DNA from: a bacterium
GTDB lineage: Bacteria; Vulcanimicrobiota; Xenobia; Xenobiales; JADMJV01
NCBI GenBank assembly: GCA_018780265.1
Contig: JADMJV010000021.1
Span: 1 to 64,000 of the forward strand
Length of the DNA: 64,000 nucleotides
Direction of reading: 5' to 3'
The notes under the pieces were generated by a model. The model was not told where the DNA came from. It did no database searches and saw only the letters and a program-made list of their open reading frames with translations. Shown here piece by piece: positions 79 through 13,479 of this stretch (position 1 is the stretch's first letter; each line of letters opens with the position of its first letter). A program made the translations under genes and the position numbers.

Positions 79-549
79 GTGCTCTTTTGGAATGGCCCTG
101 CCCGGGCTGGCTCCGGACCGCCCGAACTGTTCCCAGAGGAATTTCCCAATCCCCCAGCACCTCCCGATGTGCAGACCGTGCAGGCCAGTGAGGACCGAAT
201 CCGCTCCGGCCAACTTCTCACCAGCGGGGGCCACCTTACCTCCTCCAACGGACGCTTTCAGTTTTTCGTCCAGGACGACGGAAACTGCGTCATCTATCGA
301 CTCTCCCCAAACCAGCGTCAGGCTCTGTGGAGCACCAATACCCGAGGCCAAAACTGCCGCCTGGCCCTCGACGCTCAGGGCCTTCTGCGACTCACGGACT
401 CCAGTGGCAGCACCCTGTGGCAGGCCGGCTCCAGCAAAGGTCCCGGGCAATACTACTTGCAGATGCAGGAGGACGGAAATCTGGTGCTCTACTTGCAGCA
501 AGGTCAATTGCTTACGCCCGAGTGGGCGTCGCAGAGCAGCCAAAAGTAA
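79..549 (+). CDS. Bulb-type (GNA-like, B-type) mannose-binding lectin domain protein. The 5' end is uncertain: the frame stays open to the window edge and the upstream residues look like a signal peptide.
   Basis: Two intact QxDxNxVxY lectin motifs ('QDDGNCVIY', 'QEDGNLVLY') with typical spacing. The annotated start is GTG. No in-frame stop lies between nt 1 and 79, and the upstream translation '...WLRWLLVGVLFWNGPARA' resembles a signal-peptide h-region with an AxA cleavage site. Confidence 0.6.
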   Translation: MLFWNGPARAGSGPPELFPEEFPNPPAPPDVQTVQASEDRIRSGQLLTSGGHLTSSNGRFQFFVQDDGNCVIYRLSPNQRQALWSTNTRGQNCRLALDAQGLLRLTDSSGSTLWQAGSSKGPGQYYLQMQEDGNLVLYLQQGQLLTPEWASQSSQK

Positions 550-650: not shown

Positions 651-1304
651 TCAGTGCGACTCGGGAAGCAGACGTAGGGTTAACCGGTCCAGCCACCCCT
701 GAAAAAACCGTGCAGTCTCCGTCACGTCCAGGCCCGGAACCTGGAAACGATCCCAATCGATCGACTGAAGAATCATCACCACACTTTCGGCGTTCACGCC
801 CCCGTCTTTCCGGTTTGCCAACTCGAGAGCCAGATCCGGGTCAAGGCCTCGCCTGGCCAGGAAATGCAGGTCAAAAAAGTCGCGAGGTTCGCTGCGACTT
901 ACAATGGCACAGACCTTGTTGACTGCAATCTCCTCTGGAGGGTCAATCCTCAATCCGTCGGAACGAGTGATCTTCGCTGGAAAAACCTGGGGAGCCAAAT
1001 CTTCCACAAAATCGACCAGGGTGGCCTCGTCCTGCCGCTGAATTCGATAGCGTCGGAAGTGAGGGGAGGTCACCAGCGCCACCGAAGTCAGACCCAACTT
1101 ATGGCAGCAATCATGAACCAGATCCGCCACTCTTTCAAAAGCCTCGTGACCGACAGTAAAGAGGTCGATGTCCTGGGTCGTCCTTGGAAGGCCGTAATAG
1201 CCACTCAAAGCACCACCACCCGTTAGAAAAAAATCCCCGGTTCGTTCAAACCAGGCGACCAGGAAATCGCTCTGCAGTGGAGAGAGCTTACTCGAGTCGT
1301 CCAT
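651..1304 (-). CDS. Nucleotidyltransferase of the AbiEii/AbiGii (DUF1814) toxin family (type IV toxin-antitoxin / abortive-infection-like).
   Basis: N-terminal 'FLTGGGALSGYYGLPRTTQDIDLF' matches the GGxAL...R.S.DIDxF nucleotidyltransferase signature of the AbiEii family. Length is about 217 aa. Confidence 0.55.
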   Translation of the reverse strand: MDDSSKLSPLQSDFLVAWFERTGDFFLTGGGALSGYYGLPRTTQDIDLFTVGHEAFERVADLVHDCCHKLGLTSVALVTSPHFRRYRIQRQDEATLVDFVEDLAPQVFPAKITRSDGLRIDPPEEIAVNKVCAIVSRSEPRDFFDLHFLARRGLDPDLALELANRKDGGVNAESVVMILQSIDWDRFQVPGLDVTETARFFQGWLDRLTLRLLPESH

Positions 1305-1587
1305 GTTTTCTCCAAACGCGCAGACAGTGCTCCCAGAAACTTCGTTTGCGGCCGAGATGGGGGGAAACTTTCGACCAATTCTGGGCCACCCAATCTGGCG
1401 TAAAGAAATGCCAGACGTCGCCTATGCGCGCTTCCCTTAAAATTCGCCCCGAGTATACCCAGCGCAAATATTCACCCTGCCCACCGGCCAGGATCCTCTT
1501 GAGTTGACCCAGAGTCATTTCTTCTGACCACAGAAAATAGGGACGAGCGTTATCGGCCGTCAGGTCGAGGGTGAGATCCGAATTCAT
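1288..1587 (-). CDS. Small hypothetical protein, putative cognate partner (antitoxin?) of the AbiEii-like gene; it overlaps the downstream gene by 17 nt.
   Basis: 99-aa ORF immediately upstream on the same strand with an overlapping stop/start. No recognisable motif, so the partner role is inferred from operon position only. Confidence 0.35.
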   Translation of the reverse strand: MNSDLTLDLTADNARPYFLWSEEMTLGQLKRILAGGQGEYLRWVYSGRILREARIGDVWHFFTPDWVAQNWSKVSPHLGRKRSFWEHCLRVWRKHGRLE

Positions 1588-2245: not shown

Positions 2246-2953
2246 CTACTCTTGCTCAGTCAGTTTCTGGATTTCGGTGGTAAAGGGGCCCAGATCTTGG
2301 TAGCCGGTCCAGGTCTTGAGCACTTTGCCTTTGGGGCCCAGCAAAATGGTGTAGGGGATTTTGTCGCCGTTGAAATAGCCGATGAAGTTTTTGTAGTTGG
2401 CAGATCGGGGTTGGTTGCAGTCTACGTAGATGACGGGGACGATCTCGCGCAGGTCCACCTGCACAACCACCGGCTTGAAGAGCTTGGAAGCGGGGGCCCA
2501 ATCGGCCCCGTAAAAGATCAGATGGCACTTTTTGGGATCGTAGCCGGTGTGCGCTTTGGGAATCAAGTTGAAGTCGATGGTACCGGCCTCGGGGTGGCGC
2601 ACCAGTCGCCCGCCGAGCAGGCCGGCCAGGTCCGACAGGTGCACCAATTTGCGCTCGGAGTCGTGGCGGTAGGCCACCTCTTTGCCGACTACATAGAGTT
2701 TCTTGGTGTGACCGGCCAGCACCGGAGTGGAGTCCCCCGGCTTCACTTTGACCACCCAGTTTCCTTCGATCTCCTCCAGGCTGTAACCCAGCACCCGGCT
2801 GAACTCCTGGATGTCTACCTCCAGGGATTTGACGTCGTGGGCCGAGCCGGTCAGATAACCATGGTACATCTTGTTGCGGACATAGAGTCGGTCGGCCCAG
2901 GCGGTCGAACTGAGGGCGGCCAGCAAAAGCCAAGCCAGGAACTGTTTTTGCAC
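2246..2953 (-). CDS. Secreted thioredoxin-like fold protein (TlpA/ResA-like) with a degenerate active site.
   Basis: Signal peptide 'MQKQFLAWLLLAALSSTAWA'. The TlpA-like core 'HLIFYGADWAPAS...IPYTILLGPKGKV' has APAS where CxxC is expected. Confidence 0.45.
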   Translation of the reverse strand: MQKQFLAWLLLAALSSTAWADRLYVRNKMYHGYLTGSAHDVKSLEVDIQEFSRVLGYSLEEIEGNWVVKVKPGDSTPVLAGHTKKLYVVGKEVAYRHDSERKLVHLSDLAGLLGGRLVRHPEAGTIDFNLIPKAHTGYDPKKCHLIFYGADWAPASKLFKPVVVQVDLREIVPVIYVDCNQPRSANYKNFIGYFNGDKIPYTILLGPKGKVLKTWTGYQDLGPFTTEIQKLTEQE

Positions 2954-2967
2954 GGGAGATCCTTTCC

Positions 2968-3504
2968 TTACGGGGCTATGATTCGCTGACGCGACTTGGG
3001 ATCCATATAGGACCAGAGGGCTTCGAAGGCGCCCTGGCGGATTTCCGCTGGAAGGCCTTCAAAAATGGTTCGCTGGGTGGCGTCCAGATGGGCTGCCTCG
3101 TAGACCCGAAAGCGCTGCAATTTAGAGAGTTTGGCCCATTGTGGGGCGAGCACTTTCGAGGTGGATTCGGATTGAGTGCCCCACGGTTTTTCGATGTGGG
3201 CGTAGAGGGCCACCTGGACCCGTTTTTCAGGAGTCAGCACCCCCCACAAAGTGTTTAGCATATTTTGCTTGATTTCGTCAGGGACGGCATCCGAGAAGGT
3301 CTGGCGCATCTCGGGGGCCAGTTGGAAGGCGTCCAGCAAGAATTGCCGCTGTTCGGGCTCGAGGGTTTTCCACTGGGGCGGTGGCATCTGAGCCTGAGCC
3401 GAAGCGGCCATCATGCTAACCAGCAGCCCCGCAGTGCAGGCAAATCGCCGGCCGCTGCGGAACGCCCGCGCATATGATTTCAGACCCCACCTGTAAAGCA
3501 GCAT
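2968..3504 (-). CDS. Secreted hypothetical protein built from repeated ~25-aa helical motifs (DUF3106-like).
   Basis: Signal-like N-terminus '...LLVSMMAASAQAQ'. Recurring 'L.PE.RQ...W..L.P' motifs appear at least 4 times. Confidence 0.4.
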   Translation of the reverse strand: MLLYRWGLKSYARAFRSGRRFACTAGLLVSMMAASAQAQMPPPQWKTLEPEQRQFLLDAFQLAPEMRQTFSDAVPDEIKQNMLNTLWGVLTPEKRVQVALYAHIEKPWGTQSESTSKVLAPQWAKLSKLQRFRVYEAAHLDATQRTIFEGLPAEIRQGAFEALWSYMDPKSRQRIIAP

Positions 3505-4814
3505 GCGAGTTTATTCGTCACCATCTGGAAGCAGACCCTGCCGGAACTCGTCAGGAATACGCCGAAATCCAGACGGAACTCAGCAAACGGGGGATCGTCT
3601 ATGAAGGCAAGCCCTTGCCTATTTGCATCGCTCCCGCTTTGTTTCACCTGGCTCAAATCAAGCCGATTCAAAACCAGATGCGCCGTCTGGTACGGGTGTT
3701 GGCCAAGATCGAGGCTCCGCTGCGCGAGACCGCCTGGCTGGATCGACTGGGCATCCATCGCAGCGAGCAGCAGTTGATCCAGTGGCCCACCCGGCTCAAG
3801 CCGGGCGGATATATCTCGCGTGTGGACGGATTTGTGGAATACCAGTCGGACGGTAGCCTGGGCTATCAGATTGTCGAGTTGAACGTGGATAGTCCGGGCG
3901 GGGCGGCCTTTATGGACGAGTCCTTTCGGTTGGTGCGCAGGACTTCTCTGTGGAAGCAATTTGTCAAGAAGTTTCCGGGTCGCTATATGGATACCGACTC
4001 GCGCGACCTCCCCTTGCTTTTGAAAGCCTGGGAGGATTGGGGAGGCAAACATAAGCCTCGCATTGCGGTGATCGATTGGATTACGGTCAATACCGCCAGT
4101 GAGTTTGAACTGCTCAAGCAGCGCTACAACCGACTGGGCTACGAAACCATTATTTGCGACCCACGCGAATTGGAATACCGTGACGGTAAATTGGTCGACT
4201 ACGATGGCCAGACCATCGACCTGGTGTATCGGCGCGTTTTGGTGGAGGATTTGCTGGCTCACGCCGAGGCAGCTCGCCCCTTTTTGCACGCCTATATGGA
4301 GGAAGCGGTTTGCGTGGTTAACTCGTTTGCCTGTAAGCCGCTGACCGTCAAGAGTCTGCTTTCCTGGGTTCATCGCAGCGAGTTTGAGAGTCTGCTCAAT
4401 TCCTCGGACCTGGCCTTCTTGCGATCTCTGGTTCCCTGGACCGCGGATGTGGTGGACGGGCCTATCCTGGAACGTCTGCGTCGCGACAGAGAACAGTTGA
4501 TTTTGAAGCCGGCCGACGGCTATGGCGGTCAAGGACTTTACCTGGGTTGGGAACTGGATGAACAGGCTTGGGAGCGCGGCATCGAGGAGGCTCTGCGGGA
4601 ACGCTACGTGGCCCAGCAGAGGGTGCACATTCCGCACTCAGAGTTTCCGGTGCCGCAGGAGCAAGGGTGGACCTTTGAGTCTTTCCGTATGGACTTTGAT
4701 CCCTACATGTTCGGTGCGGCCATGGCCGATCCGTTGGTGCGGGTGGCCCAGAGCGACATTCTCAATGTGAAAGCGGGGGCCCAGATAGCGGCCACCTGGG
4801 TACTCGATGAGTGA
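3474..4814 (+). CDS. ATP-grasp family amidoligase (glutathionylspermidine-synthase-like / circularly permuted ATP-grasp).
   Basis: 446 aa. C-terminal 'KPADGYGGQGLYLGWEL' and the overall layout resemble Gsp-synthase-type ATP-grasp proteins. Its stop overlaps the downstream start (GTGA). Confidence 0.5.
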   Translation: MISDPTCKAACEFIRHHLEADPAGTRQEYAEIQTELSKRGIVYEGKPLPICIAPALFHLAQIKPIQNQMRRLVRVLAKIEAPLRETAWLDRLGIHRSEQQLIQWPTRLKPGGYISRVDGFVEYQSDGSLGYQIVELNVDSPGGAAFMDESFRLVRRTSLWKQFVKKFPGRYMDTDSRDLPLLLKAWEDWGGKHKPRIAVIDWITVNTASEFELLKQRYNRLGYETIICDPRELEYRDGKLVDYDGQTIDLVYRRVLVEDLLAHAEAARPFLHAYMEEAVCVVNSFACKPLTVKSLLSWVHRSEFESLLNSSDLAFLRSLVPWTADVVDGPILERLRRDREQLILKPADGYGGQGLYLGWELDEQAWERGIEEALRERYVAQQRVHIPHSEFPVPQEQGWTFESFRMDFDPYMFGAAMADPLVRVAQSDILNVKAGAQIAATWVLDE

Positions 4815-5758
4815 AGTGGGCACAACTGCTCTTATTGTTTTGGCTCAGCGCAATCGGCTGGACCCAGCAACCGGCGGACGGGTTTGACCCTGCCAAAACC
4901 TGGGTGTTCGTAGTAGGGGTGTTGGAATGGCAGCGTTCTGATGTGTATCCCTCGTTTCCAAAGAGCAACCGGCGAGATACCCGCCTGGCTCTGGCCTATG
5001 GCAAATTGGGTGTGCCCTCGGGACAGATTTTTCTATTGCTGGATCGGGCCGCGACCGGACAGAACATCCACACCAGTTTTATGGAGATCCTGGCCAAGTC
5101 CCGGCCGGGGGACACCTTGATTCTCTATTATGCCGGTCACGGCTATCGCCAGGAGTCGGACCAGACTTTTTGGATGGTGCCCTATGATGGCTATGATGTG
5201 GACACCCTGTGGGGCTTGAAGGGGATCGAGAAAGACATCCGAGCTCACTTCAAGGGATCGCGGGTGTTGCTCTCGGCGGACTGTTGCCATTCAGGCTGTA
5301 TGTGGTTGGTGGTCGGCCGCAATGAAAGCGACATGGGGTTTTTGGCTTTGACTTCCTCCACTGCGCGGCTGAGCAGCACGGGCAACTGGACCTTTACTGA
5401 CTGTCTTCTCGATGCTCTGGGTGGAGACCCGCGCTGCGACGGCGACCAGGACGGCGTCATCACCCTGGGTGAGGTGGCCCGTCAGGTGGAGAAGGATATG
5501 CAGTTTGCGGAAGGCCAGCAGGCGGGAGGGACCGGTTCTGCAAGATTTCCCCTGGAGACTCGCTGGGTCAAGACCACTCACCCTTTGCGCTCCGGAGAGG
5601 GTCAGTTTGTGAGCGTTTTTGCCGATGGAGCTTATTGGAAAGCGCGAGTGGTAGAGCGGGGGGGGCAGGGGGTGCTTGTCCACTGGATGGGCCTGGCGCA
5701 GGATTACCCTGACGATTGGGTGTCTCCCTCGCGCGTCACTCCATGGGCGGGTCCGTAG
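4811..5758 (+). CDS. Secreted caspase-like cysteine peptidase (C14 family / metacaspase-like) with a C-terminal Tudor/SH3-like barrel domain.
   Basis: Signal peptide 'MKWAQLLLLFWLSAIGW'. Catalytic His 'LILYYAGHGY' and Cys 'SADCCHSG' motifs are present. C-terminal 'FVSVFADGAYWKARVVE...VLVHWMG' has an aromatic-cage-like pattern. Confidence 0.65.
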   Translation: MKWAQLLLLFWLSAIGWTQQPADGFDPAKTWVFVVGVLEWQRSDVYPSFPKSNRRDTRLALAYGKLGVPSGQIFLLLDRAATGQNIHTSFMEILAKSRPGDTLILYYAGHGYRQESDQTFWMVPYDGYDVDTLWGLKGIEKDIRAHFKGSRVLLSADCCHSGCMWLVVGRNESDMGFLALTSSTARLSSTGNWTFTDCLLDALGGDPRCDGDQDGVITLGEVARQVEKDMQFAEGQQAGGTGSARFPLETRWVKTTHPLRSGEGQFVSVFADGAYWKARVVERGGQGVLVHWMGLAQDYPDDWVSPSRVTPWAGP

Positions 5759-5835
5759 GGGCCTTTTGTGGCATTTTTCCTGCTTGCGCTTTTGTCAAGA
5801 GGGTTTCGCCTTTGGGGGCGGAAATCAGGCCGGCT

Positions 5836-6165
5836 ATGAAAACCATTGTTCGTTTGCTATTGGCCCTATCGCTGTTCGGATCGGCTCAGGCCGAATCCAT
5901 CCTGGACTGGATTTTCCCCCCCACCCGGATTGGCGGCACGGTGGGGTATGTTCAAACCAATCACTTTATGCTGGTCTCGCCGGACAATCAGTATCTGCGG
6001 GTGTTCTTGAAGCCCGGCCAGATTATGCCCAGTACTGTCGTTCCTGGAATGTATGTTACCGGCACTGTGACCGAGAACGAACAGCAGATGGTGATTCTCG
6101 AAACCCTGGATGGGGTTCTGTCTCCCAGCGGAGAACTGGTTCCGCTGACAGCGCCCAACCAGTAG
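5836..6165 (+). CDS. Small secreted hypothetical protein.
   Basis: ATG at 5836 begins 'MKTIVRLLLALSLFGSAQA' (signal peptide). The longer ORF from 5716 has no better start. Confidence 0.4.
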   Translation: MKTIVRLLLALSLFGSAQAESILDWIFPPTRIGGTVGYVQTNHFMLVSPDNQYLRVFLKPGQIMPSTVVPGMYVTGTVTENEQQMVILETLDGVLSPSGELVPLTAPNQ

Positions 6166-6186
6166 TAAGGCGGAGGTCCACACGAT

Positions 6187-7212
6187 ATGTCCACCTGGAA
6201 ACACACTCTGGCGCTGGGGTTGGCGATAAGCCCCTGGAGTTGGGCCGACCCGAAGCTCTCCGTTGACCTGAAAAAGGGCAGCGACAAGGTGGAAATTCGA
6301 TTTTCACAATCGGCTCCTTTCGAGACGGTTACCCAAAAGTGGCGGGAGAATCCTCATCGCCTGGAAATTACCGTTCCCAAGGTGGAATGGTCTGGCAAGG
6401 CTTCTAGCAATATTGACAAGGGCGTGCTGCAACGGGTTGAAATGAAACAGGGTCAAGGTTCGGTCACGGTGACCGTGCTTTCGTTGCAGAATCCTAAAAT
6501 GAGCTGGGTGAGCAGCGCCGACAGGAAGACCTGGACCTTGCGCATCGCCACCACTGAGATGGCAGCGTCTGCTGAACCGCCTCGTCTTCCCAACGCGGCC
6601 GCGGTCTCGGCTGCGCCCAAGTCTTTTGCTGACCTGGCCGTACAGACTTCCGGTAAGCCTGTGAGCGCCCCCCCACCCGTGCGGGTGCGACCCCCGGCGA
6701 CTCCGCCTTCGACCTCTAACGGAGTCGAGCAAAAACTGATCACCCTCAATCTGCAAAACAGAGATCTGCCTACGGCCATTCGAGAAATGGCGCGGGCGGC
6801 TGGTTTGGAAGCGGATATTGGCCCCGGCGTAGAGGGAAGCGTAACGGCATCGTTCACAGATACCCCTCTGGCTCGGGCTTTGACCAGCGTTTTGGGCAAG
6901 CAGGCCAGGCTTTATGAGTTCAAGATTGTGAATCATCGACTGCGCGTTTTTGCGGACGCGGATTCGGCTGGGACCACGCTGGTTACCAGCGCCCCAACTC
7001 AGGCGGGGACGCCCCGGAGCGTGAATCTGGTCAGTGACTACTTTCCGATTGTGGCCGACAAGCCCGTCAGTGAATTGGCTCAGGCTGTGCGGCGGGCTGT
7101 CACGGACGTTGAAGTGATTCAGGACGACCGCCTCAATGTGCTTTTTGTGCGTGGGGATGCTGCCGATATCGAGAAGGTGCGAAACCTGCTTCAAAAGGTT
7201 CTCGCCAAGTAG
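6187..7212 (+). CDS. AMIN-domain protein with a secretin-N (STN/NolW-like) domain and no secretin pore domain.
   Basis: N-terminal 'RLEITVPKVEWSG...VTVTVLSLQNP' looks like an AMIN domain. C-terminal 'LITLNLQNRDLPTAIREMARAAGL...SVTASFTDTPLARAL' looks like a secretin-N/STN domain. Signal peptide-like start. Confidence 0.45.
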   Translation: MSTWKHTLALGLAISPWSWADPKLSVDLKKGSDKVEIRFSQSAPFETVTQKWRENPHRLEITVPKVEWSGKASSNIDKGVLQRVEMKQGQGSVTVTVLSLQNPKMSWVSSADRKTWTLRIATTEMAASAEPPRLPNAAAVSAAPKSFADLAVQTSGKPVSAPPPVRVRPPATPPSTSNGVEQKLITLNLQNRDLPTAIREMARAAGLEADIGPGVEGSVTASFTDTPLARALTSVLGKQARLYEFKIVNHRLRVFADADSAGTTLVTSAPTQAGTPRSVNLVSDYFPIVADKPVSELAQAVRRAVTDVEVIQDDRLNVLFVRGDAADIEKVRNLLQKVLAK

Positions 7213-7243
7213 GACCGATTCGGTCAAACGCGAAAGGCCGCAC

Positions 7244-9220
7244 ATGACGAAGCGCCGAACGAGTCCATCCAAATCAGCCGCTGCCCCCAGCACAGAGTCT
7301 CAGCCAGTGGCAACGCTGGAAGATTTGCGCCACCTGGAGAAAGAATTCCCAGACCGCGCCGATGTCCAGTTTGATTTGGGTGTCGCCCTTGCCCGCCAGG
7401 GAGAGCAGGGGAAGGCCGCCAAGCACTGGCGGCGAGTGGTGGATATTGACCCGGGTCATTCGGCGGCTCGCTACTTCCTGGGGATGTACTATCTGGGGCA
7501 GGGCAAATTTCGCCAGGCGGCAGATCAATATCGCAAGGCACTCGAGCACCGCCCCGATGACCCCTATGCCCACAACAATCTTGGACTGGTATACGCGCGA
7601 CAGGCCCAATACGGTAAGGCTATTGAGTGCTGGGAGCGGGCCCTGCAACTGTCGCCGGACTACTCGCAGGCTTACTACAATCTGGGGTTGATGTATTCGC
7701 GCCTGGGTCAGTTAGAGCAGGCGGAGTCCTATTATTTGACGGCCCTGCAACTCAATGCGGATGATGTCTATGCTCACAACAACCTGGGCCAGGTCTACGC
7801 TCGTCAGAATCGTCTTGATGAGGCCGAGGGGTGCTTTCGGCGGGCCCTTGAACTCGACCGCACCGACCTTTACGCCCACAATAATCTGGGCAAACTGATG
7901 GAGCGCACCGAGCGAGTCGACCAGGCGCGTCGCGAGTTTGAACTGGCTTTGCAGATCGATTCTGGGGATGCCTACGCCCGCAACAACCTGGGTCGTATCA
8001 TGGCCAAGCAGGGTGATCAGAGCGGGGCAGTCACGCAATTTCGCGCTGTCCTTGAGGAGCATCCCGAAGATGCCGTGGCCTATCACAATTTAGGGCGAGT
8101 TCACGCCCAGCAAGGAATGTGGCAAGAGGCGGTGGGGTACTATAGCCGCGCGTTGGAATTGTCCCCCCATGACTCCTATGCTCGCAATAACCTGGGTAGG
8201 GCTCTGCTCAGCCTGGGTAGGGTGGAAGAAGCGGAGCAGGAGTTTCGGCGCAGCCTGGTTGCCGACGACCGGGACAGTTACGCCCTCAATAATCTGGGAC
8301 TGTGTTTGATTCGGTCGGGCCGGATGGGGGAGGCCGTCGAGGTGCTGGTGAGAGCGGTCGAGGTCGACCCGGGAGATGTGCTGGCTCGCAACAATCTTGG
8401 CTTCTCGCTGTCTTCGTTGGGACGCTACGAGGAGGCCATGGAGCATTTTGCCTACGCGGTCTCGCAGGACGAGCGCGACGCCTACGCGCTGACGCATTGG
8501 GGTCTGGCCCTGTCTCAGACCGGGCGTCTAGAAGAAGCGGGTCAACGTTTTGAGGCAGCGGTGGCGGCCGATCATCGGGATGTCTACGCTCTCAATCATC
8601 TGGGTTTGACTCGATATCAACTGGGTGAGGTGGACTCCGCGTTGGCGGCTTTTGATCAGGCTTTGGCGGCTGAACCCTGCGACGGATACACTCTGAGCAA
8701 CCTCGGTTTGGTTTTGACGGCCCTGGAACGATTTGAAGAAGCTGCGGGCCGCTTTGAGGCCGCCCTTCAGGCTGACCCCCGAGACGTCTATTCGCGCAAC
8801 AATCTGGGCATTGTGCTGGCTCGCTTGCGCCGGTTTGATGATGCGGTTCAGCAGTTGCAACAGGCGCTGGAGCAAATGCCGGATTACGCCGAAGGTCACT
8901 TTAATCTCGCACTGGCCCACTACGAGTTGCGCGAGTATCCCACGGCGGTGGTGCATTTTGAGAAAGCCCTGCAACTGGAGCCCGACCTGCTGGCTGCACG
9001 GGGCAACCTGGCGTTGACTTTGGCCCATCTGGGCGAGGTGGAGCAGAGTCGCCAGCAGTTGGCTCGCGTCAGGCTTTTGGCGGAAGCGCAGGGACAGCCC
9101 AACTATGCTGACGAGCTTTCCCACGAGGTGGACTCGGTGCTGGCCGTTCCTGCCGGGAAAAAATCTGCTCCAGCAAGCGTAGCTCCGAAGAAAACCGGGA
9201 AGAAGCCAAAAAAGAAATAG
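7244..9220 (+). CDS. TPR-repeat protein (at least 15 tandem TPR units) with a Lys-rich C-terminal tail.
   Basis: Repeated 'A..NNLG.....G...EA...+..AL...P....A..NLG' 34-aa units throughout. The ATG at 7244 avoids overlap with the upstream gene. Tail is 'KKTGKKPKKK'. Confidence 0.8.
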   Translation: MTKRRTSPSKSAAAPSTESQPVATLEDLRHLEKEFPDRADVQFDLGVALARQGEQGKAAKHWRRVVDIDPGHSAARYFLGMYYLGQGKFRQAADQYRKALEHRPDDPYAHNNLGLVYARQAQYGKAIECWERALQLSPDYSQAYYNLGLMYSRLGQLEQAESYYLTALQLNADDVYAHNNLGQVYARQNRLDEAEGCFRRALELDRTDLYAHNNLGKLMERTERVDQARREFELALQIDSGDAYARNNLGRIMAKQGDQSGAVTQFRAVLEEHPEDAVAYHNLGRVHAQQGMWQEAVGYYSRALELSPHDSYARNNLGRALLSLGRVEEAEQEFRRSLVADDRDSYALNNLGLCLIRSGRMGEAVEVLVRAVEVDPGDVLARNNLGFSLSSLGRYEEAMEHFAYAVSQDERDAYALTHWGLALSQTGRLEEAGQRFEAAVAADHRDVYALNHLGLTRYQLGEVDSALAAFDQALAAEPCDGYTLSNLGLVLTALERFEEAAGRFEAALQADPRDVYSRNNLGIVLARLRRFDDAVQQLQQALEQMPDYAEGHFNLALAHYELREYPTAVVHFEKALQLEPDLLAARGNLALTLAHLGEVEQSRQQLARVRLLAEAQGQPNYADELSHEVDSVLAVPAGKKSAPASVAPKKTGKKPKKK

Positions 9221-9242
9221 CGCCGGGCACCGCTCGGCGGCG

Positions 9243-10976
9243 GTGACCATGAAGCGCAATAAAGTCTTTCAGTTTCTCTCCTCGATCAAGTTGGCCGTCA
9301 TCTTGTTTGTGTTGTTCGCGGGGATTTTGGCCACGGCCACCTTCTACGAGTCTAGCTACGATACGCAGACGGCCCAGCATCTGGTCTACAAGAGTCCGTT
9401 CTTCGCCTTCTTCCTGGCCTTGTTTTTTGTCAACATCTTCTGTTCCACGGCCATTCGCTTCCCCTGGAAGAAAAAGCAGTTCGGTTTTGTGGTCACGCAT
9501 ACGGGCATTCTGGTGTTGCTGGCCGCCTCGGCGGTGACGATGGTGGCCGGTGTCGATGGTTCCATGATGATTCAGGAGGGGCAGACTTCCAGGCGGGTCA
9601 TGCTCAATGACCCGGTCTTTTTTGTGGGCAGGCCCAGTGAGAAGATGAAAGAGGTTCCGGCCGAATTTCGCTGGCGCCCACCCACTGAAGAGAAGCCGGC
9701 AGTGGTGCCTTTGAGTGAGGGGGTGACCGCCGAAGTCATTGAATATCTCCACCATTCCCGCCTGCACACTTACTTTCAGGAAGCTCCTCAGGGAGTGCCG
9801 GCCCTGGAGATGCGCATTTTCAATCCTCGGGTCGATCAGCGTCAGTGGTTGACGGCCGGCCGGGGCGACATCCAGTTGGGCCCTGCCAAGATCCGCCTGC
9901 TGCGGGCCAGCGACGATGCTCACCTGAAGACCTTGCTGGGGGCGGGTTCGAGCGAAAAAGGCGACTTGCAGTTGCTGGTGGCGGGCGAGCCCATTCAAAT
10001 CAAAATTTCCGAGCTGACTCCCGGCAAACCATTCCCGGCCGGCAAGTTTCAGGTTACTCTGAAGCGCCTGTTGCCGCACGCGGTTGTGGTCAAGAATCAG
10101 CTGGTTTCTCAGAGCGATGAACCGATCAATCCCTGTCTCGATCTGCGCATCAGCGATGATCAGGGAAACTGGCAGGAATGGCTGCTTTTTGCTCGACTGC
10201 CCGATCTCAACACCCGCACTGCGTCTCAGGGCAAGACTTTGCAGGCTCGTCTGCTCTACGTGTGGGACAGTCCCGGCAAGGAGCACGTGTTGACCTTTGT
10301 TGTGAATTCGGCTGGCAAGTTGTGGGCCAAGGTCGACCAGCGGCCGGCTGTGGCCGTGGAAGTCGGCAAGGCTCAGCCCACCGGCTGGATGAACTTGCAA
10401 TTTGAGGTCCAGAAGCTTTTTCCCAGGGCGGTCGAAGTGCGCGAATTTGTGGCCGTTGAGGTGGAAAAGGGCAATGAGCAGAACGCACCTCCGCCGGCCA
10501 TCAAGGTCCGCTTTCAGGGAGTCAAGGAAAGTCAGCCGGTATGGCTGGAGCGGGGCGATGTCCACCAGGTCAACACCGCCTCCGGGCAACCGCTGGTGGT
10601 GGGCTACGCCTACCGAACCATCGAGTTGGAGTTTCCGGTGCGGTTGAAGGACTTTCAGACGGTGATGGATCCGGGTACTAACAGTCCGGCGGCCTTCAAG
10701 AGTCAGGTGGAGGTGGAGGGCAAGGAATACTTGATTGAAATGAACGAGCCCATGGTTAAAGGGGGCTTCAAGTTCTTTCAAAGCAGCTATGCCGAGGTGC
10801 CTGGCCAACCTTCCACTTCTATCTTTACGGTTGCCAAAGACCCCGGCATTGGATTGAAATATTTGGGTTCGATTATGGTGGTATTGGGTATCGCCATCAT
10901 GTTTGCGACCAGGCCGTACAAAGTGGGGCTAAGTCGCCGAGTAGAGCGTCCTGACGAGGAGCCTATCTCAGATTGA
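9243..10976 (+). CDS. ccsB: Cytochrome c biogenesis protein CcsB/ResB (system II).
   Basis: N-terminal TM segments plus a large periplasmic domain with ResB-like length and hydropathy. It is translationally coupled (4-nt overlap) to ccsA. Confidence 0.75.
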   Translation: MTMKRNKVFQFLSSIKLAVILFVLFAGILATATFYESSYDTQTAQHLVYKSPFFAFFLALFFVNIFCSTAIRFPWKKKQFGFVVTHTGILVLLAASAVTMVAGVDGSMMIQEGQTSRRVMLNDPVFFVGRPSEKMKEVPAEFRWRPPTEEKPAVVPLSEGVTAEVIEYLHHSRLHTYFQEAPQGVPALEMRIFNPRVDQRQWLTAGRGDIQLGPAKIRLLRASDDAHLKTLLGAGSSEKGDLQLLVAGEPIQIKISELTPGKPFPAGKFQVTLKRLLPHAVVVKNQLVSQSDEPINPCLDLRISDDQGNWQEWLLFARLPDLNTRTASQGKTLQARLLYVWDSPGKEHVLTFVVNSAGKLWAKVDQRPAVAVEVGKAQPTGWMNLQFEVQKLFPRAVEVREFVAVEVEKGNEQNAPPPAIKVRFQGVKESQPVWLERGDVHQVNTASGQPLVVGYAYRTIELEFPVRLKDFQTVMDPGTNSPAAFKSQVEVEGKEYLIEMNEPMVKGGFKFFQSSYAEVPGQPSTSIFTVAKDPGIGLKYLGSIMVVLGIAIMFATRPYKVGLSRRVERPDEEPISD

Positions 10977-12625
10977 GGATGTCCATGAAGTCGCAGTTCC
11001 TTTTGCTAGCCTGGTTGTTCGCCCTGGTCTGTCCGGGGTTGGGTTGGGCCCAAGAAGCTCCTCCCGCCTACCTTGACCGATTTCGTCATCTGGCTGTGCA
11101 GCAGGGGGGGCGACTCAAGCCCTTTGACACTTTTGCTCTGGAGTCTGTGCGCTACATCACCGGCAAGGTCGAGTTTGAAAAACGCGACCCGGTAGTGACG
11201 ATGCTGCAATGGTGGGCCCTCAATGAGAAAGTCGTGGATCTTCCGGTCATCGAGTTTCGCAACAAAGAGTGGCTCAAGCGCCTGGGATTGTCGGTCGATC
11301 AGCGCTACTACAAAGCCAGCGAATTGAATAAGAATCCAGAACTCGTCAAGATTCGCGAGCAGCTTCACCAGTTGAAACCAGGCGATAAGGTGCCTCAGCG
11401 GCTGGTCCCTATCAGTGAACTGATTAGCAAAATGGCGACCCTGGAGATGTTGGCCCGGGGCGCCGACTGGTCGATGGTACCCTCGCCCCACGCTCTGACC
11501 GACCCCTGGGGAAGCCTGTATGACCTGGAAGGGGAGACTCCCCCCGAGTTGGGCGCGGCCAGGCAGGCCTCGGCCAGGTTTCGTGTGGCCTTGCAGCAGC
11601 ACACTGGCGAGGATGCGGCAGTCGGCGAACTGGCTCAATCGCTGCAGGCTCTGGGCCCCTATCCCGACCCTTCGGCCCTGGCCAGGGAAGTGCACTATAA
11701 CCATTTTCACCCCTTTCGCAAGGCCTGGATGCTTTATCTCTTCAGCCTGGTCTGTCTCTTTCTAACCACGCGTGGCACCTCGCTTTACTGGTTGGGTGTG
11801 GCCGGAGCGGCCGGCGGTTGGACGCTGCACGCCTATGGTTTTTACCTGCGCTGCAGCATCGGCGGACGCCCCCCTGTGACCAACATGTATGAGTCGGTCA
11901 TCTGGGTGGGTTTTGGCGCAGTAACTTTTGCCTTGATCTTCGAACTGCTCTATCGCGCCCGCAGCTATCTGATGGCGGCCTGTAGCGGGGCGGTTATTTG
12001 CCTGGCTTTGGCCGATCAGTTGCCGGCTGTGCTCGACCCCTCCATTCGCCCATTGATGCCCGTACTGCGCAGCAATTTTTGGCTGACCATTCACGTGCTC
12101 ACCATCACGCTGGGTTATGCCGCTTTTCTGCTCTCGATGGGATTGGGCCATATGGTGCTGTGGAAGCATCTGCGCGGACCTGACCAGAAAGAAGAGTTGA
12201 GTGCATTGCACCTGGCTCTTTATAAATCCATTCAGGTGGGTGTGATTTTGCTGGCGGCCGGAACCTTCTTGGGCGGCGTATGGGCTAACTATTCTTGGGG
12301 CCGCTTCTGGGGTTGGGACCCCAAGGAAGTGTGGGCTTTGATCGCTTTGCTTGGCTATCTGGCCATTCTCCATGCTCGCTTCACGGGCTGGGTTGGGCAT
12401 TTTGGTATCGCCTGTTGGTCGGTGCTGGCCTTCCAGGGAGTGCTTATGGCCTGGTATGGCGTAAACTTTGTGCTGGGGGCCGGACTTCACAGTTATGGTT
12501 TTGGCAACGGTGGAGTTCAATACGTGGCGGTTTACAGCGCTCTGGAAGTGTTGTTTGTGGCCTATACGGCCTGGAAAGTGAAAGGTCACCAGGTCGATCT
12601 GGCCGGTCGCGCGCCCCATCCTTGA
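10973..12625 (+). CDS. ccsA: Cytochrome c-type biogenesis protein CcsA with an N-terminal periplasmic extension.
   Basis: WWD/tryptophan-rich heme-handling motif 'WGRFWGWDPKEVWALIAL' and multiple TM helices in the C-terminal half. Signal peptide at the N-terminus. Confidence 0.8.
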   Translation: MRMSMKSQFLLLAWLFALVCPGLGWAQEAPPAYLDRFRHLAVQQGGRLKPFDTFALESVRYITGKVEFEKRDPVVTMLQWWALNEKVVDLPVIEFRNKEWLKRLGLSVDQRYYKASELNKNPELVKIREQLHQLKPGDKVPQRLVPISELISKMATLEMLARGADWSMVPSPHALTDPWGSLYDLEGETPPELGAARQASARFRVALQQHTGEDAAVGELAQSLQALGPYPDPSALAREVHYNHFHPFRKAWMLYLFSLVCLFLTTRGTSLYWLGVAGAAGGWTLHAYGFYLRCSIGGRPPVTNMYESVIWVGFGAVTFALIFELLYRARSYLMAACSGAVICLALADQLPAVLDPSIRPLMPVLRSNFWLTIHVLTITLGYAAFLLSMGLGHMVLWKHLRGPDQKEELSALHLALYKSIQVGVILLAAGTFLGGVWANYSWGRFWGWDPKEVWALIALLGYLAILHARFTGWVGHFGIACWSVLAFQGVLMAWYGVNFVLGAGLHSYGFGNGGVQYVAVYSALEVLFVAYTAWKVKGHQVDLAGRAPHP

Positions 12626-13479
12626 TGTCGGTGGCCCGATGCGTCGACTTTTGTCTGGATCAGCCTTTGCTTGGCAGCGCCCCTTTGAGTCACTGGGTGT
12701 TGGTTGTCGATCAGCCGCGCCCCTGGCAGTCGAAGATTCAACGCGGTTTGACCCTGCCCCCTGAGTGGCAGGCCATCAGCGACGCCTGGCGTGTGAGTGG
12801 GGAGCCTTTTAGCTTGTTGGCCCGGGCCAGCGACCGGGGCCAGTTTCACCTGTTTCGCTGGCAGGACGGGGTGGTCTGTCAGTTGGCCCATCCGGAGGCA
12901 GAGCCTCAACCGGTGACGCCCCGGTTGTTGGTGTGTACGCACGGCAGTCGGGATGCCTGCTGTGGCAGTCTGGGGGTGCGTCTGGCCCAGATCCTGCGGT
13001 CTGAGCACGAGGTATGGGAAGTGAGTCATCTGGGAGGGCATCGCTTTGCCCCCACCCTGTGGCACTTGCCCGGTTGGCGTCTCTATGGTCGATTGCCTCT
13101 GGACTCGAGCGTGGTTGAGGGCTGGAACGATCCTCGCTATCTGCGCGGCAATGCCGCCTACTCCCCTCAAATTCAGGTATTGGAAGAGCATCTGCGGCGA
13201 TTGAGGGGGCGGTGGCCGCTGTGGATCTGCGAGCACGAGAACGGTTTCCGGGTGCGCTGGCCATGCGGCCAGGAGGAGATGTGGGCTGCGACCCTGCTGA
13301 CGCATTCCCATCGGGGCCCCGTGAGCTGCCGTGACATCGCGCCAGGGATAAGCGAGCCCTACCTCAGTTACGAAGTGGCCGAATCGGAGTGTGTCGGGCT
13401 GCTGGACCCGGCCGGCAAATCTGAGCAACTTTCAACTTCTGAAGGGGTTCGCTGCCCGACCGGGAAAAGGCCCCCATGA
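12625..13479 (+). CDS. Sucrase/ferredoxin-like family protein (thioredoxin-like [2Fe-2S] fold).
   Basis: Motifs 'CTHGSRDACCGSLG' and 'SHLGGHRFAP' are present. The ATG at 12625 overlaps the ccsA stop (TGATG). The longer ORF from 12295 runs inside ccsA. Confidence 0.5.
   Translation: MSVARCVDFCLDQPLLGSAPLSHWVLVVDQPRPWQSKIQRGLTLPPEWQAISDAWRVSGEPFSLLARASDRGQFHLFRWQDGVVCQLAHPEAEPQPVTPRLLVCTHGSRDACCGSLGVRLAQILRSEHEVWEVSHLGGHRFAPTLWHLPGWRLYGRLPLDSSVVEGWNDPRYLRGNAAYSPQIQVLEEHLRRLRGRWPLWICEHENGFRVRWPCGQEEMWAATLLTHSHRGPVSCRDIAPGISEPYLSYEVAESECVGLLDPAGKSEQLSTSEGVRCPTGKRPP

What the first reader, a model, noticed from the sequence alone, without database searches (positions are those of the whole stretch)
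3474..5758. Translationally coupled ATP-grasp amidoligase and secreted caspase-like protease with a Tudor/SH3-like tail
Seen in sequence: the ATP-grasp ORF's stop overlaps the GTG start (GTGA) of a signal-peptide-bearing C14 caspase-like protein with intact His ('YYAGHG') and Cys ('DCCHSG') motifs and a C-terminal aromatic-cage-like barrel. Established knowledge: Gsp-synthase-like or circularly permuted ATP-grasp enzymes ligate amino or peptide groups, and they are repeatedly found in operons with peptidases that process the same peptide substrate (peptide-tagging or modification systems). Bacterial caspase-like proteins are often effectors in conflict or programmed-death systems. Inference: this is a possible ligase-protease pair acting on a periplasmic or secreted peptide substrate.
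Basis: partly seen in the sequence, partly recalled or inferred. Interest (0 to 1): 0.55.

Follow-up and report, generated by a model that had tools for sequence, protein, structure and literature searches.

The report
Ligase and secreted caspase share operon
Two real, intact genes, a cytoplasmic glutathione-synthetase-like ATP-grasp ligase and an exported caspase-like protease with a chromo/Tudor-type tail, overlap by four bases, but they are neighbours in only one narrow bacterial lineage, so this looks like an ordinary operon insertion rather than a dedicated ligase-protease system.

Summary
ORF 3474-4814 is a circularly permuted ATP-grasp ligase. ORF 4811-5758 starts at a GTG inside GTGA and encodes a protein with a hydrophobic signal-like N-terminus, a C14 caspase fold and an intact His110/Cys159 dyad. 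It also carries an EF-hand-type loop and a C-terminal chromo-barrel (Tudor-knot-like) domain.

The inferred shared-substrate pair is not supported.
- Of 79 species-level loci encoding the ATP-grasp, one also has the caspase.
- Of 80 metagenomic loci encoding the caspase family, only the four closest have the ATP-grasp.
- The pair occurs in one Vulcanimicrobiota (Eremiobacterota) lineage, where the junction is always tight.
- Other members of the phylum have ATP-grasp -> small secreted protein -> Secretin_N-like -> TPR -> ResB -> CcsA without a caspase. They often have an S66 LD-carboxypeptidase directly upstream.
- More distant homologues sit in an esterase/ATP-grasp/GCS2/M29 operon.
- The ligase has no export signal and the caspase does.

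The secreted caspase plus chromo-like architecture is already published (PMC5906684). My verdict is new members of known families in a lineage-specific gene order, of low interest. A peptidase-swap reading remains a low-probability possibility.

The parts
3474..4814 (+). Cytoplasmic circularly permuted ATP-grasp amide ligase (446 aa), CP_ATPgrasp_2-type with a glutathione-synthetase/GspS-like fold
   Evidence: ORF. PF14403 at 30.5 bits, E 2.4e-7, and 26 of 28 homologues hit PF14403. Profile match to 3n6x at E 7e-8. AF2 pLDDT 90.3, with Foldseek top hits glutathione synthetase, 3n6x, Cp1B, YgiC/YjfC and GspS. No hydrophobic N-terminus.
4503..4535 (+). ATP-grasp core motif LKPADGYGGQG (aa 344-354), including invariant K345, P346, D348, G351 and G354
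   Evidence: These columns are invariant in the 28-sequence alignment A3. E135, N137, R116, D118, R253, R254, K288, K293 and Q381 are also invariant. NCBIfam glutathione synthetase models match this stretch locally.
4811..4814 (+). GTGA start/stop overlap between the two genes
   Evidence: Sequence. Junctions are equally tight in all eight pair-clade loci: 4- or 8-nt overlaps or a 3-nt gap.
4811..5758 (+). Exported C14 caspase-like cysteine peptidase with a C-terminal chromo-like domain (315 aa)
   Evidence: ORF. PF00656 at 25.9 bits, above the 21.4 cut-off. AF2 pLDDT 93, with Foldseek hits to MALT1, metacaspase and legumain. 437 homologous clusters.
4811..4870 (+). Signal-peptide-like N-terminus (aa 1-20, MKWAQLLLLFWLSAIGWTQQ)
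   Evidence: Hydrophobic N-termini occur in all 31 aligned homologues and in every pair-clade orthologue. The published architecture also has a signal peptide. No dedicated predictor was run.
5138..5140 (+). Catalytic His110 codon (YYAGHG)
   Evidence: Invariant in alignment A2 and aligned to the metacaspase-4 SGHG motif.
5285..5287 (+). Catalytic Cys159 codon (ADCCHSG)
   Evidence: Invariant in A2 and aligned to the metacaspase-4 DSCHSG motif.
5438..5473 (+). EF-hand-type Ca2+-binding loop DGDQDGVITLGE (aa 210-221) inside the caspase domain
   Evidence: Loop positions 1 (D) and 12 (E) are invariant, and 3 (D/N), 5 (D), 6 (G) and 8 (I/V/L) are conserved in 31 homologues. Homologue P0178 gives a weak EF-hand_5 hit.
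5594..5746 (+). C-terminal chromo-barrel / Tudor-knot-like domain (aa 262-312)
   Evidence: Five-strand barrel in the AF2 model. Tail profile A4 matches EAF3/MRG15/MRG2/MBT/SETDB1-Tudor at E 4e-7 to 1e-3. Homologues pass the Agenet and Tudor-knot cut-offs, while the window's tail alone scores E 0.087.
5836..6165 (+). Small secreted protein (109 aa), part of the phylum-conserved downstream block
   Evidence: Homologues follow the ATP-grasp directly in caspase-free loci L004, L015, L016, L017, L018 and L021. No Pfam hit.
6187..7212 (+). Secretin_N-like periplasmic protein (341 aa)
   Evidence: PF03958 at 27.3 bits against a cut-off of 28.2. Conserved downstream in L010, L016, L017 and L018.
7241..9220 (+). 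TPR protein with a CcmH/CycH-type TPR match
   Evidence: TPR families, plus PF23914 at 113 bits. Syntenic in L004, L010, L017, L018 and L021.
9243..12625 (+). ResB (9243-10976) and CcsA (10973-12625), System II cytochrome c biogenesis, at the end of the co-directional array
   Evidence: PF05140 and PF01578. The only terminator-like hairpin lying between genes of this + strand array is 12627-12648, just after CcsA.
2246..3504 (-). Two divergently transcribed periplasmic-type genes: a 178-aa repeat protein (2968-3504) and a 235-aa thioredoxin-like protein (2246-2953). They occupy the position held by S66 in related lineages.
   Evidence: ORFs. Conserved upstream in pair-clade loci L010, L089 and L090, and ORFs of similar size and orientation sit at the same position in L170 and L172 (homology not checked). 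Only weak family hits.

Best explanation
The two genes are co-transcribed, and probably translationally coupled, at the head of a seven-gene co-directional array: ATP-grasp, caspase, small secreted protein, Secretin_N-like protein, CcmH-like TPR protein, ResB, CcsA. They most likely do not share a substrate.

The first product is a cytoplasmic amide-bond ligase with the glutathione-synthetase/GspS-type permuted ATP-grasp fold. By analogy with every characterised enzyme of this fold, it uses ATP to join an amine to the carboxylate of a small peptide or acid (inferred; substrate unknown).

The second is a Sec-exported clan-CD cysteine peptidase with a His110/Cys159 dyad. I infer that it is Ca2+-modulated through an embedded EF-hand loop. 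I also infer that its chromo-barrel tail tethers it to a peptide ligand in the cell wall, periplasm or extracellular matrix, where it cleaves proteins or peptides. This is the function already proposed for this published architecture.

The adjacency arose when the caspase gene was inserted between the ATP-grasp and a downstream block that is conserved across the phylum. What the junction gives is co-expression, not a pathway.
For: The pairing is limited to one lineage.
- 1 of 79 species loci with the ATP-grasp has the caspase (L010, 79% identity).
- 4 of 80 caspase-family loci have the ATP-grasp, and all four are the closest relatives (L089-L092). None of the other 76 has it (48 of the 80 loci have at least 1.5 kb of upstream sequence).
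- Look-ups at 42-58% ATP-grasp identity show no caspase (P0025, P0036, P0067, P0021); the P0016 contig (64%) ends about 240 nt after the gene, so its downstream is unknown. Look-ups at 41-48% caspase identity show no ATP-grasp (P0140, P0145, P0192).

The caspase looks like an insertion.
- Caspase-free relatives keep ATP-grasp -> small secreted -> SecN-like -> TPR -> ResB -> CcsA (L004, L015-L018, L021).

The ATP-grasp has other, older partners.
- S66 LD-carboxypeptidase lies directly upstream in 7 Vulcanimicrobiota loci.
- Homologues at 30-39% identity sit in an esterase / 321-aa protein / CP_ATPgrasp_2 / GCS2 / M29 operon.
- All those hydrolase partners lack signal peptides.

The compartments differ.
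- The caspase has a hydrophobic N-terminus in every orthologue and the ligase has none.

The caspase family has no conserved neighbour (at most 10 of 83 loci share any one). The secreted caspase plus chromo-like architecture and its proposed role are published (PMC5906684). Both enzymes look active, with invariant catalytic residues and confident folds. No terminator-like site beyond chance lies inside the array, and one lies just after CcsA.
Against: Within its lineage the tight junction survives while the caspase diverges to about 50% identity and the ATP-grasp to about 72%. This holds in eight loci: the window, L010, L089-L092, L170 and L172. That is longer retention than expected for a purely accidental neighbour.

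The ATP-grasp family recurrently sits beside hydrolases (S66, esterase, M29), so a ligase-hydrolase theme exists, and the caspase clade is the one that lacks S66 next door.

Co-transcription, export, and both enzyme activities are inferred, not measured. Whole genomes were not available to test co-occurrence.
Confidence: 0.6

Rival explanations
1. This is a true ligase-peptidase module. The ATP-grasp builds or extends a peptide or peptide conjugate that ends up outside the cytoplasm, and the exported caspase-chromo protein recognises and cleaves it. In this lineage the caspase would have replaced the S66 peptidase as the hydrolytic partner.
For: The junction stays tight across eight loci despite caspase divergence to about 50%. 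The ATP-grasp family is repeatedly next to hydrolases (S66, esterase, M29). S66 is absent from the whole 64-kb window and from the upstream side in pair-clade loci. S66 and the chromo-like domains are both linked, by known function and by published prediction respectively, to cell-wall peptides.
Against: The adjacency is absent from 78 of 79 ATP-grasp loci and 76 of 80 caspase loci. The ligase is cytoplasmic and the caspase exported. All other hydrolase partners are cytoplasmic. No transporter or precursor-peptide gene lies in the array. Several ATP-grasp loci in the phylum have no peptidase neighbour at all (L008, L011, L012, L019).
Confidence: 0.2
2. The caspase belongs functionally with the downstream envelope and cytochrome c biogenesis genes rather than with the ATP-grasp, for example by processing or quality-controlling periplasmic proteins of that block.
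For: All downstream products are exported or membrane proteins in one co-directional array with gaps of 78 nt or less. The caspase was inserted exactly at the cytoplasmic/periplasmic boundary of the array.
Against: The downstream block exists unchanged without the caspase in six related loci. The wider caspase family is never found beside ResB/CcsA.
Confidence: 0.1
3. The caspase is an effector of a conflict or programmed-death system, with the ATP-grasp as its modifier or regulator.
For: PADLOC's generic caspase model matches at 39 bits. NCBIfam caspase_w_EACC1 gives a partial match at 43.9 bits. An AbiEii toxin gene lies 2 kb upstream.
Against: The EACC1-type score is far below its cut-off of 140. 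No NTPase, sensor or effector-associated partner is present. The ATP-grasp matches no PADLOC model. The protein is exported and has a matrix- or peptide-binding tail. AbiEii is on the other strand, separated by several genes, and absent from related loci.
Confidence: 0.04
4. The ATP-grasp synthesises a small-molecule inhibitor or regulator of the neighbouring cysteine protease, following the logic of the fungal E-64 ligase Cp1B.
For: Cp1B is among the structural neighbours of the ATP-grasp model (E 1e-14, TM 0.66). It makes a cysteine protease inhibitor (PMC12568646).
Against: The similarity is at fold level only (15% identity) and is shared with glutathione synthetases. No epoxysuccinate-forming oxygenase or second amide-forming enzyme is nearby. 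E-64 targets papain-like proteases, not clan CD (from my own knowledge, not taken from the paper). The ligase is conserved in many genomes that lack the caspase.
Confidence: 0.02

Closest known systems
Secreted bacterial caspase-like peptidase fused to chromo-like (Tudor-knot/Agenet) domains, described by Kaur, Iyer, Subramanian and Aravind 2018 (PMC5906684)
   Same: It has a signal-type N-terminus, a caspase domain with a His/Cys dyad, and a C-terminal chromo-barrel. Homologues at 36-43% identity in Planctomycetota and Acidobacteriota (Pyrinomonadaceae) score above the Pfam cut-offs for Agenet and Tudor-knot.
   Different: The window's protein has one chromo-like domain, whereas many relatives have two. 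One aromatic position is lost (GL in place of G-W/Y/F). The host phylum (Vulcanimicrobiota) is not among those listed in the paper. An embedded EF-hand loop and the family-specific NRRD and STGNWTF motifs are not taken from that paper.
Pfam CP_ATPgrasp_2 (PF14403) / CP_ATPgrasp_1 (PF04174; structure 3n6x)
   Same: The permuted ATP-grasp fold is shared. The profile match to 3n6x spans residues 45-445. Homologues at 30-39% identity sit in an esterase / ATP-grasp / GCS2 / M29 operon, which from memory I take to be the context given for PF14403.
   Different: The window's own score is 1.5 bits below the Pfam cut-off. The canonical operon partners are absent here. The Vulcanimicrobiota subfamily has S66 and a cytochrome c biogenesis block as neighbours instead.
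Eukaryotic-type glutathione synthetase, GspS/trypanothione synthetase, and E. coli YgiC/YjfC peptide-spermidine ligases
   Same: These are the best structural matches (E 1e-18 to 1e-11, TM 0.5-0.7). The E-x-N and Lys/Arg nucleotide and Mg motifs are conserved. The expected chemistry is the same: carboxylate plus amine, driven by ATP.
   Different: Identity is only 12-18%. GSP_synth is not matched by the window protein and is matched by only 2 of 28 homologues. There is no amidase domain. The substrate is unknown.
Metacaspases, orthocaspases and MALT1 paracaspase (MEROPS C14B)
   Same: The caspase-haemoglobinase fold, the GHG and D-x-C-H-S-G motifs, and an Asp two residues before the catalytic Cys, as in Arg/Lys-specific relatives.
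   Different: It is exported. It has no p10 or prodomain of the eukaryotic types. The Ca2+ site, if real, is an EF-hand loop rather than the metacaspase site. Specificity was not tested.

Membership tests
CP_ATPgrasp_2 (PF14403) | Pfam HMM score at or above the gathering cut-off (32 bits) | tested here: inconclusive
   The window protein scores 30.5 bits, E 2.4e-7. 26 of 28 aligned homologues match at E<=1e-3. The identical database protein P0001 carries a precomputed PF14403 hit.
CP_ATPgrasp_2 (PF14403) | Circularly permuted ATP-grasp fold (glutathione synthetase / 3n6x type) | tested here: met
   AF2 pLDDT 90.3. Foldseek gives 3n6x at TM 0.70 and human GS at E 1.4e-18. The profile matches 3n6x at E 7e-8.
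CP_ATPgrasp_2 (PF14403) | Conserved nucleotide- and Mg-binding residues | tested here: met
   E135, N137, R116, D118, R253, R254, K288, K293, K345, D348 and Q381 are invariant in 28 sequences. Assigning roles to them by analogy with human GS (E144, N146, K305, K364) rests on memory and was not tested.
CP_ATPgrasp_2 (PF14403) | Operon with a GCS2-like ligase and alpha/beta-hydrolase or metallopeptidase genes | tested here: not met
   This context is present in 37-57 of the 79 loci, all among those at 30-39% identity. It is absent from the window and from all Vulcanimicrobiota loci except for an esterase in L001.
Glutathionylspermidine synthase (PF03738 GSP_synth) | HMM match to the family | tested here: not met
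   The window protein has no hit, and only 2 of 28 homologues hit weakly (E 8.8e-5).
Peptidase C14 (caspase/metacaspase/orthocaspase) | Pfam PF00656 score above the cut-off | tested here: met
   25.9 bits against a cut-off of 21.4.
Peptidase C14 (caspase/metacaspase/orthocaspase) | Catalytic His-Cys dyad in the GHG and DxCHSG contexts | tested here: met
   H110 and C159 are invariant in 31 homologues and aligned to the metacaspase-4 motifs.
Peptidase C14 (caspase/metacaspase/orthocaspase) | Caspase-haemoglobinase fold | tested here: met
   Foldseek matches MALT1, metacaspase-9, Yca1, legumain and GSU0716 at E 6e-10 to 1e-6.
Peptidase C14 (caspase/metacaspase/orthocaspase) | Proteolytic activity and P1 specificity | not testable with these tools
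   This needs an enzyme assay.
Secreted caspase + bacterial chromo-like domain architecture (PMC5906684) | N-terminal signal peptide | tested here: inconclusive
   A Lys-containing n-region followed by a 14-residue hydrophobic stretch, conserved in all orthologues. No SignalP-type predictor was available.
Secreted caspase + bacterial chromo-like domain architecture (PMC5906684) | C-terminal chromo-like SH3-fold barrel homologous to Tudor-knot/Agenet | tested here: met
   The tail profile matches EAF3/MRG chromo barrels at E 4e-7. Homologues pass the Agenet and Tudor-knot cut-offs. The AF2 model shows a five-strand barrel.
Secreted caspase + bacterial chromo-like domain architecture (PMC5906684) | Aromatic cage for modified amino groups | tested here: inconclusive
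   Y275, W276, W292, Y299 and W303 are present. The G-W/Y/F position is Leu in the window's clade. Cage geometry was not examined.
Caspase-based conflict systems (e.g. EACC1-associated caspases) | Family-specific HMM above the cut-off and a linked sensor, NTPase or adaptor gene | tested here: not met
   caspase_w_EACC1 scores 43.9 bits against a cut-off of 140. PADLOC gives only a generic caspase hit, and no neighbour matches a defence model apart from an unrelated AbiEii.
Dedicated ATP-grasp ligase + peptidase peptide-modification operon | The gene pair is conserved across divergent lineages | tested here: not met
   1 of 79 ATP-grasp loci and 4 of 80 caspase loci carry the pair, all in one clade.
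Dedicated ATP-grasp ligase + peptidase peptide-modification operon | Both enzymes work in the same compartment, or a precursor or exporter gene is present | tested here: not met
   The ligase has no export signal and the caspase has one. No small precursor ORF or transporter lies in the array.

The most novel reading that the evidence does not exclude
Peptidase swap around a conserved ligase. In Vulcanimicrobiota the glutathione-synthetase-like ATP-grasp ancestrally works with a cytoplasmic S66 LD-carboxypeptidase on a cell-wall-type peptide or peptide conjugate. In the window's lineage S66 was replaced by an exported caspase-chromo peptidase. That would move the hydrolytic step to the periplasm, with the chromo-like barrel recognising the ligase-made modification. 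It would be the first functional link between a permuted ATP-grasp and a bacterial caspase, and would give a ligand for bacterial chromo-like domains.
Probability: 0.08. Interest if true: 0.55.

Novelty: new member of a known kind. Interest (0 to 1): 0.22.

Why it matters
If the ordinary reading is right, it matters mainly as a caution. A 4-nt start/stop overlap and two suggestive domain names do not make a system, and neighbourhood surveys in both directions settled that here.

The work has three smaller useful results.
- It extends the published secreted caspase plus chromo-like architecture to Vulcanimicrobiota/Eremiobacterota.
- It flags a conserved EF-hand loop and family signatures (NRRD, STGNWTF) that could guide biochemical study of these uncharacterised exported caspases.
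- It records a phylum-wide S66-ATP-grasp pairing that is a better candidate for a real ligase-peptidase module than the pair originally flagged.

Tried and rejected
- Small precursor ORF upstream (2968-3504). The region is a conserved 178-aa minus-strand gene. The 70-aa plus-strand ORF 3265-3477 is its antisense shadow.
- Codon-position substitution count between the window and L010 for that gene. It was invalid because of a one-codon indel, so I dropped it.
- Promoter and terminator scan. Counts were at chance level, and only the hairpin after CcsA is well placed.
- PADLOC and NCBIfam searches for defence systems found no system.
- Single-sequence PDB search was too weak (E 0.15 and 0.035), so I replaced it with profile and fold searches.
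- Literature searches for 'circularly permuted ATP-grasp' and for ATP-grasp plus caspase-like neighbourhoods found no description of this pairing. The original amidoligase paper (Iyer et al. 2009) is not in the searchable library, so statements about it rest on memory.
- The Cp1B/E-64 inhibitor analogy was considered and rejected as fold-level similarity only.
- I did not use the third homologue search, the representative-library search, or the viral collections, because they were not needed to reach the verdict.

Full report
**1. Observation**

The window contains ORF 3474..4814 (+, 446 aa, ATG) and ORF 4811..5758 (+, 315 aa, GTG). The junction reads GAT GAG TGA with GTG at 4811, so start and stop share GTGA. 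The preceding codon in the caspase frame is a stop. GTG 4811 is therefore the only start that preserves the hydrophobic N-terminus MKWAQLLLLFWLSAIGW. GC content is even (0.55-0.61) across the region, with no compositional island.

**2. The ligase**

- Pfam gives CP_ATPgrasp_2 at 30.5 bits (cut-off 32, E 2.4e-7) and a weaker CP_ATPgrasp_1 hit.
- 26 of 28 aligned homologues hit CP_ATPgrasp_2, 16 hit CP_ATPgrasp_1, and only 2 hit GSP_synth.
- A family profile matches the CP_ATPgrasp_1 structure 3n6x over residues 45-445 (E 7e-8).
- The AlphaFold model (pLDDT 90.3) is closest to eukaryotic-type glutathione and homoglutathione synthetases, 3n6x (TM 0.70), the E-64 ligase Cp1B, YgiC/YjfC and GspS.
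- Sixty-one columns are invariant across 33-100% identity. They include E135, N137, R116, D118, R253, R254, K288, K293, K345 and Q381.

The enzyme looks active. It has no N-terminal hydrophobic segment, so I take it to be cytoplasmic.

**3. The protease**

- Peptidase_C14 scores 25.9 bits against a cut-off of 21.4.
- The model (pLDDT 93.0) matches MALT1, metacaspases, legumain and GSU0716.
- H110 and C159 are invariant in 31 homologues, as are the family-specific NRRD and STGNWTF motifs.
- Residues 210-221 (DGDQDGVITLGE) fit the EF-hand loop consensus, and the key positions are conserved family-wide.
- A profile of residues 262-312 matches EAF3/MRG15/MRG2 chromo barrels, MBT and SETDB1 Tudor domains (best E 4e-7).
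- Homologues in Planctomycetota and Pyrinomonadaceae pass the Agenet and Tudor-knot cut-offs. The window's tail alone scores only E 0.087.

This architecture, with a signal peptide, a caspase-like peptidase and chromo-like domain(s), is described in PMC5906684 as one of the commonest contexts of secreted bacterial chromo-like domains. That paper predicts binding of peptides in peptidoglycan or the extracellular matrix.

**4. Is the pairing conserved?**

From the ATP-grasp side, a scan of one genome per species found at least 578 relatives in many phyla. Of the 79 best loci, only L010 (79% identity) also encodes the caspase.

From the caspase side, only the four closest of 80 metagenomic loci (L089-L092, 50-72% identity) have the ATP-grasp upstream. 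None of the other 76 do, and 48 of the 80 loci have at least 1.5 kb of upstream sequence.

Individual look-ups agree.
- ATP-grasp homologues at 42-58% identity have no caspase. The contig of the 64% homologue ends just downstream of the gene, so it is uninformative.
- Caspases at 41-48% identity have no ATP-grasp. This includes two Vulcanimicrobiota loci with a different conserved PLD/DUF1328 context.
- The pair is present at 72% ATP-grasp / 51% caspase identity (L170), and again in L172, where the caspase is 52% identical.

In all eight pair-clade loci the junction is a 4- or 8-nt overlap or a 3-nt gap. The wider caspase family has no conserved neighbour.

**5. What the ATP-grasp is linked to elsewhere**

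Homologues at 30-39% identity (Chloroflexota, Dormibacterota, Acidobacteriota and others) sit in an operon of five genes: an esterase (PF00756), a 321-aa protein with no Pfam hit, CP_ATPgrasp_2, GCS2 (PF04107) and sometimes M29.

Within Vulcanimicrobiota, seven loci have an intact S66 LD-carboxypeptidase directly upstream on the same strand (L004, L013, L014, L015, L017, L018, L021).

The order ATP-grasp -> ~100-aa secreted protein -> Secretin_N-like -> TPR -> ResB -> CcsA is kept from 41% to 100% identity. The window's clade differs in two ways.
- The caspase is inserted between the ATP-grasp and the small secreted protein.
- S66 is replaced upstream by two divergent periplasmic-type genes. 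No S66 is detectable anywhere in the 64-kb window.

**6. Mechanism**

I conclude that the two genes are co-expressed, and probably translationally coupled, but act separately. One is a cytoplasmic amide ligase of unknown small-peptide or metabolite substrate. The other is an exported, probably Ca2+-modulated cysteine peptidase tethered by its chromo barrel to an extracytoplasmic peptide ligand.

What is shown: the ORFs, the folds, the conserved catalytic residues, and the phyletic pattern of adjacency. What is inferred: export, the activities, the substrates and co-transcription. I found no terminator-like site beyond chance inside the array, and one lies right after CcsA.

**7. Rivals**

A true ligase-peptidase module (confidence 0.2) is kept alive by two things. 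The junction is retained while the caspase diverges to about 50%, and the ATP-grasp recurrently sits next to hydrolases. It is weakened by the compartment mismatch, by the absence of a precursor or exporter gene, and by ATP-grasp loci that have no peptidase neighbour at all.

A link of the caspase to the downstream envelope and cytochrome c block (0.1), a conflict or programmed-death role (0.04) and an E-64-like inhibitor logic (0.02) are less likely.

**8. Novelty and score**

Both proteins are new members of known families. The caspase-chromo architecture is published, and the adjacency is a lineage-specific gene order. Interest is low (0.22). The S66-ATP-grasp pairing and the EF-hand loop in this caspase family are the most useful by-products.

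Noticed in passing
L004 5075-5959; L018 4900-5739; L013 4190-5137; L014 5048-5995; L015 4953-5954; L017 about 5000-5950; L021 about 2879-3736: In seven Vulcanimicrobiota loci an intact Peptidase_S66 (LD-carboxypeptidase) gene lies directly upstream of the ATP-grasp orthologue or paralogue on the same strand. This is a better-conserved ligase-peptidase pair than the one flagged, and its function is unknown.
   Followed up: partly
window 5438-5473 (caspase aa 210-221): A canonical EF-hand Ca2+-binding loop (DGDQDGVITLGE) is embedded in the caspase domain and conserved across 31 homologues from several phyla. The family-specific invariant motifs NRRD (aa 53-56) and STGNWTF (aa 189-195) were also seen.
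   Followed up: partly
L022-L088 (e.g. L062 3962-5674, L044 3029-4162, L029 8335-9363): Distant ATP-grasp homologues sit in a conserved operon of esterase, a 321-aa protein with no Pfam hit, CP_ATPgrasp_2, GCS2 and M29 peptidase. The 321-aa partner is found in 57 of 79 loci and is uncharacterised.
   Followed up: partly
window 79-549 (+): A 156-aa ORF has a bulb-type D-mannose-binding lectin match (B_lectin, 29.8 bits against a cut-off of 32.4) and two QxDxNxVxY-like motifs.
   Followed up: no
window 651-1304 (-) and 1288-1587 (-): An AbiEii-family nucleotidyltransferase toxin gene (Pfam 63 bits, several PADLOC AbiEii models). The overlapping upstream 99-aa ORF has no family match and could be its antitoxin partner.
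   Followed up: no
window 5836-12625 (+): A co-directional block of a small secreted protein, a Secretin_N-like protein, a TPR protein with a CcmH/CycH-type match (113 bits), ResB and CcsA. It is conserved downstream of the ATP-grasp across the phylum. Why a cytoplasmic glutathione-synthetase-like ligase heads a System II cytochrome c biogenesis array is unexplained.
   Followed up: partly
L006 and L173 (caspase at 6001-6975 and 4001-4930): A second Vulcanimicrobiota lineage of the caspase-chromo protein (45-48% identity) has its own conserved context of PLD-like phospholipase, DUF1328 and an unknown gene. It shows no link to an ATP-grasp.
   Followed up: no
window 3474-3504: The annotated starts of the ATP-grasp (+) and the divergent 178-aa ORF (-) overlap by 31 nt. 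The same overlap appears in L010 and L089, so one of the two start codons is probably mis-assigned, or the promoters are embedded in coding sequence.
   Followed up: no
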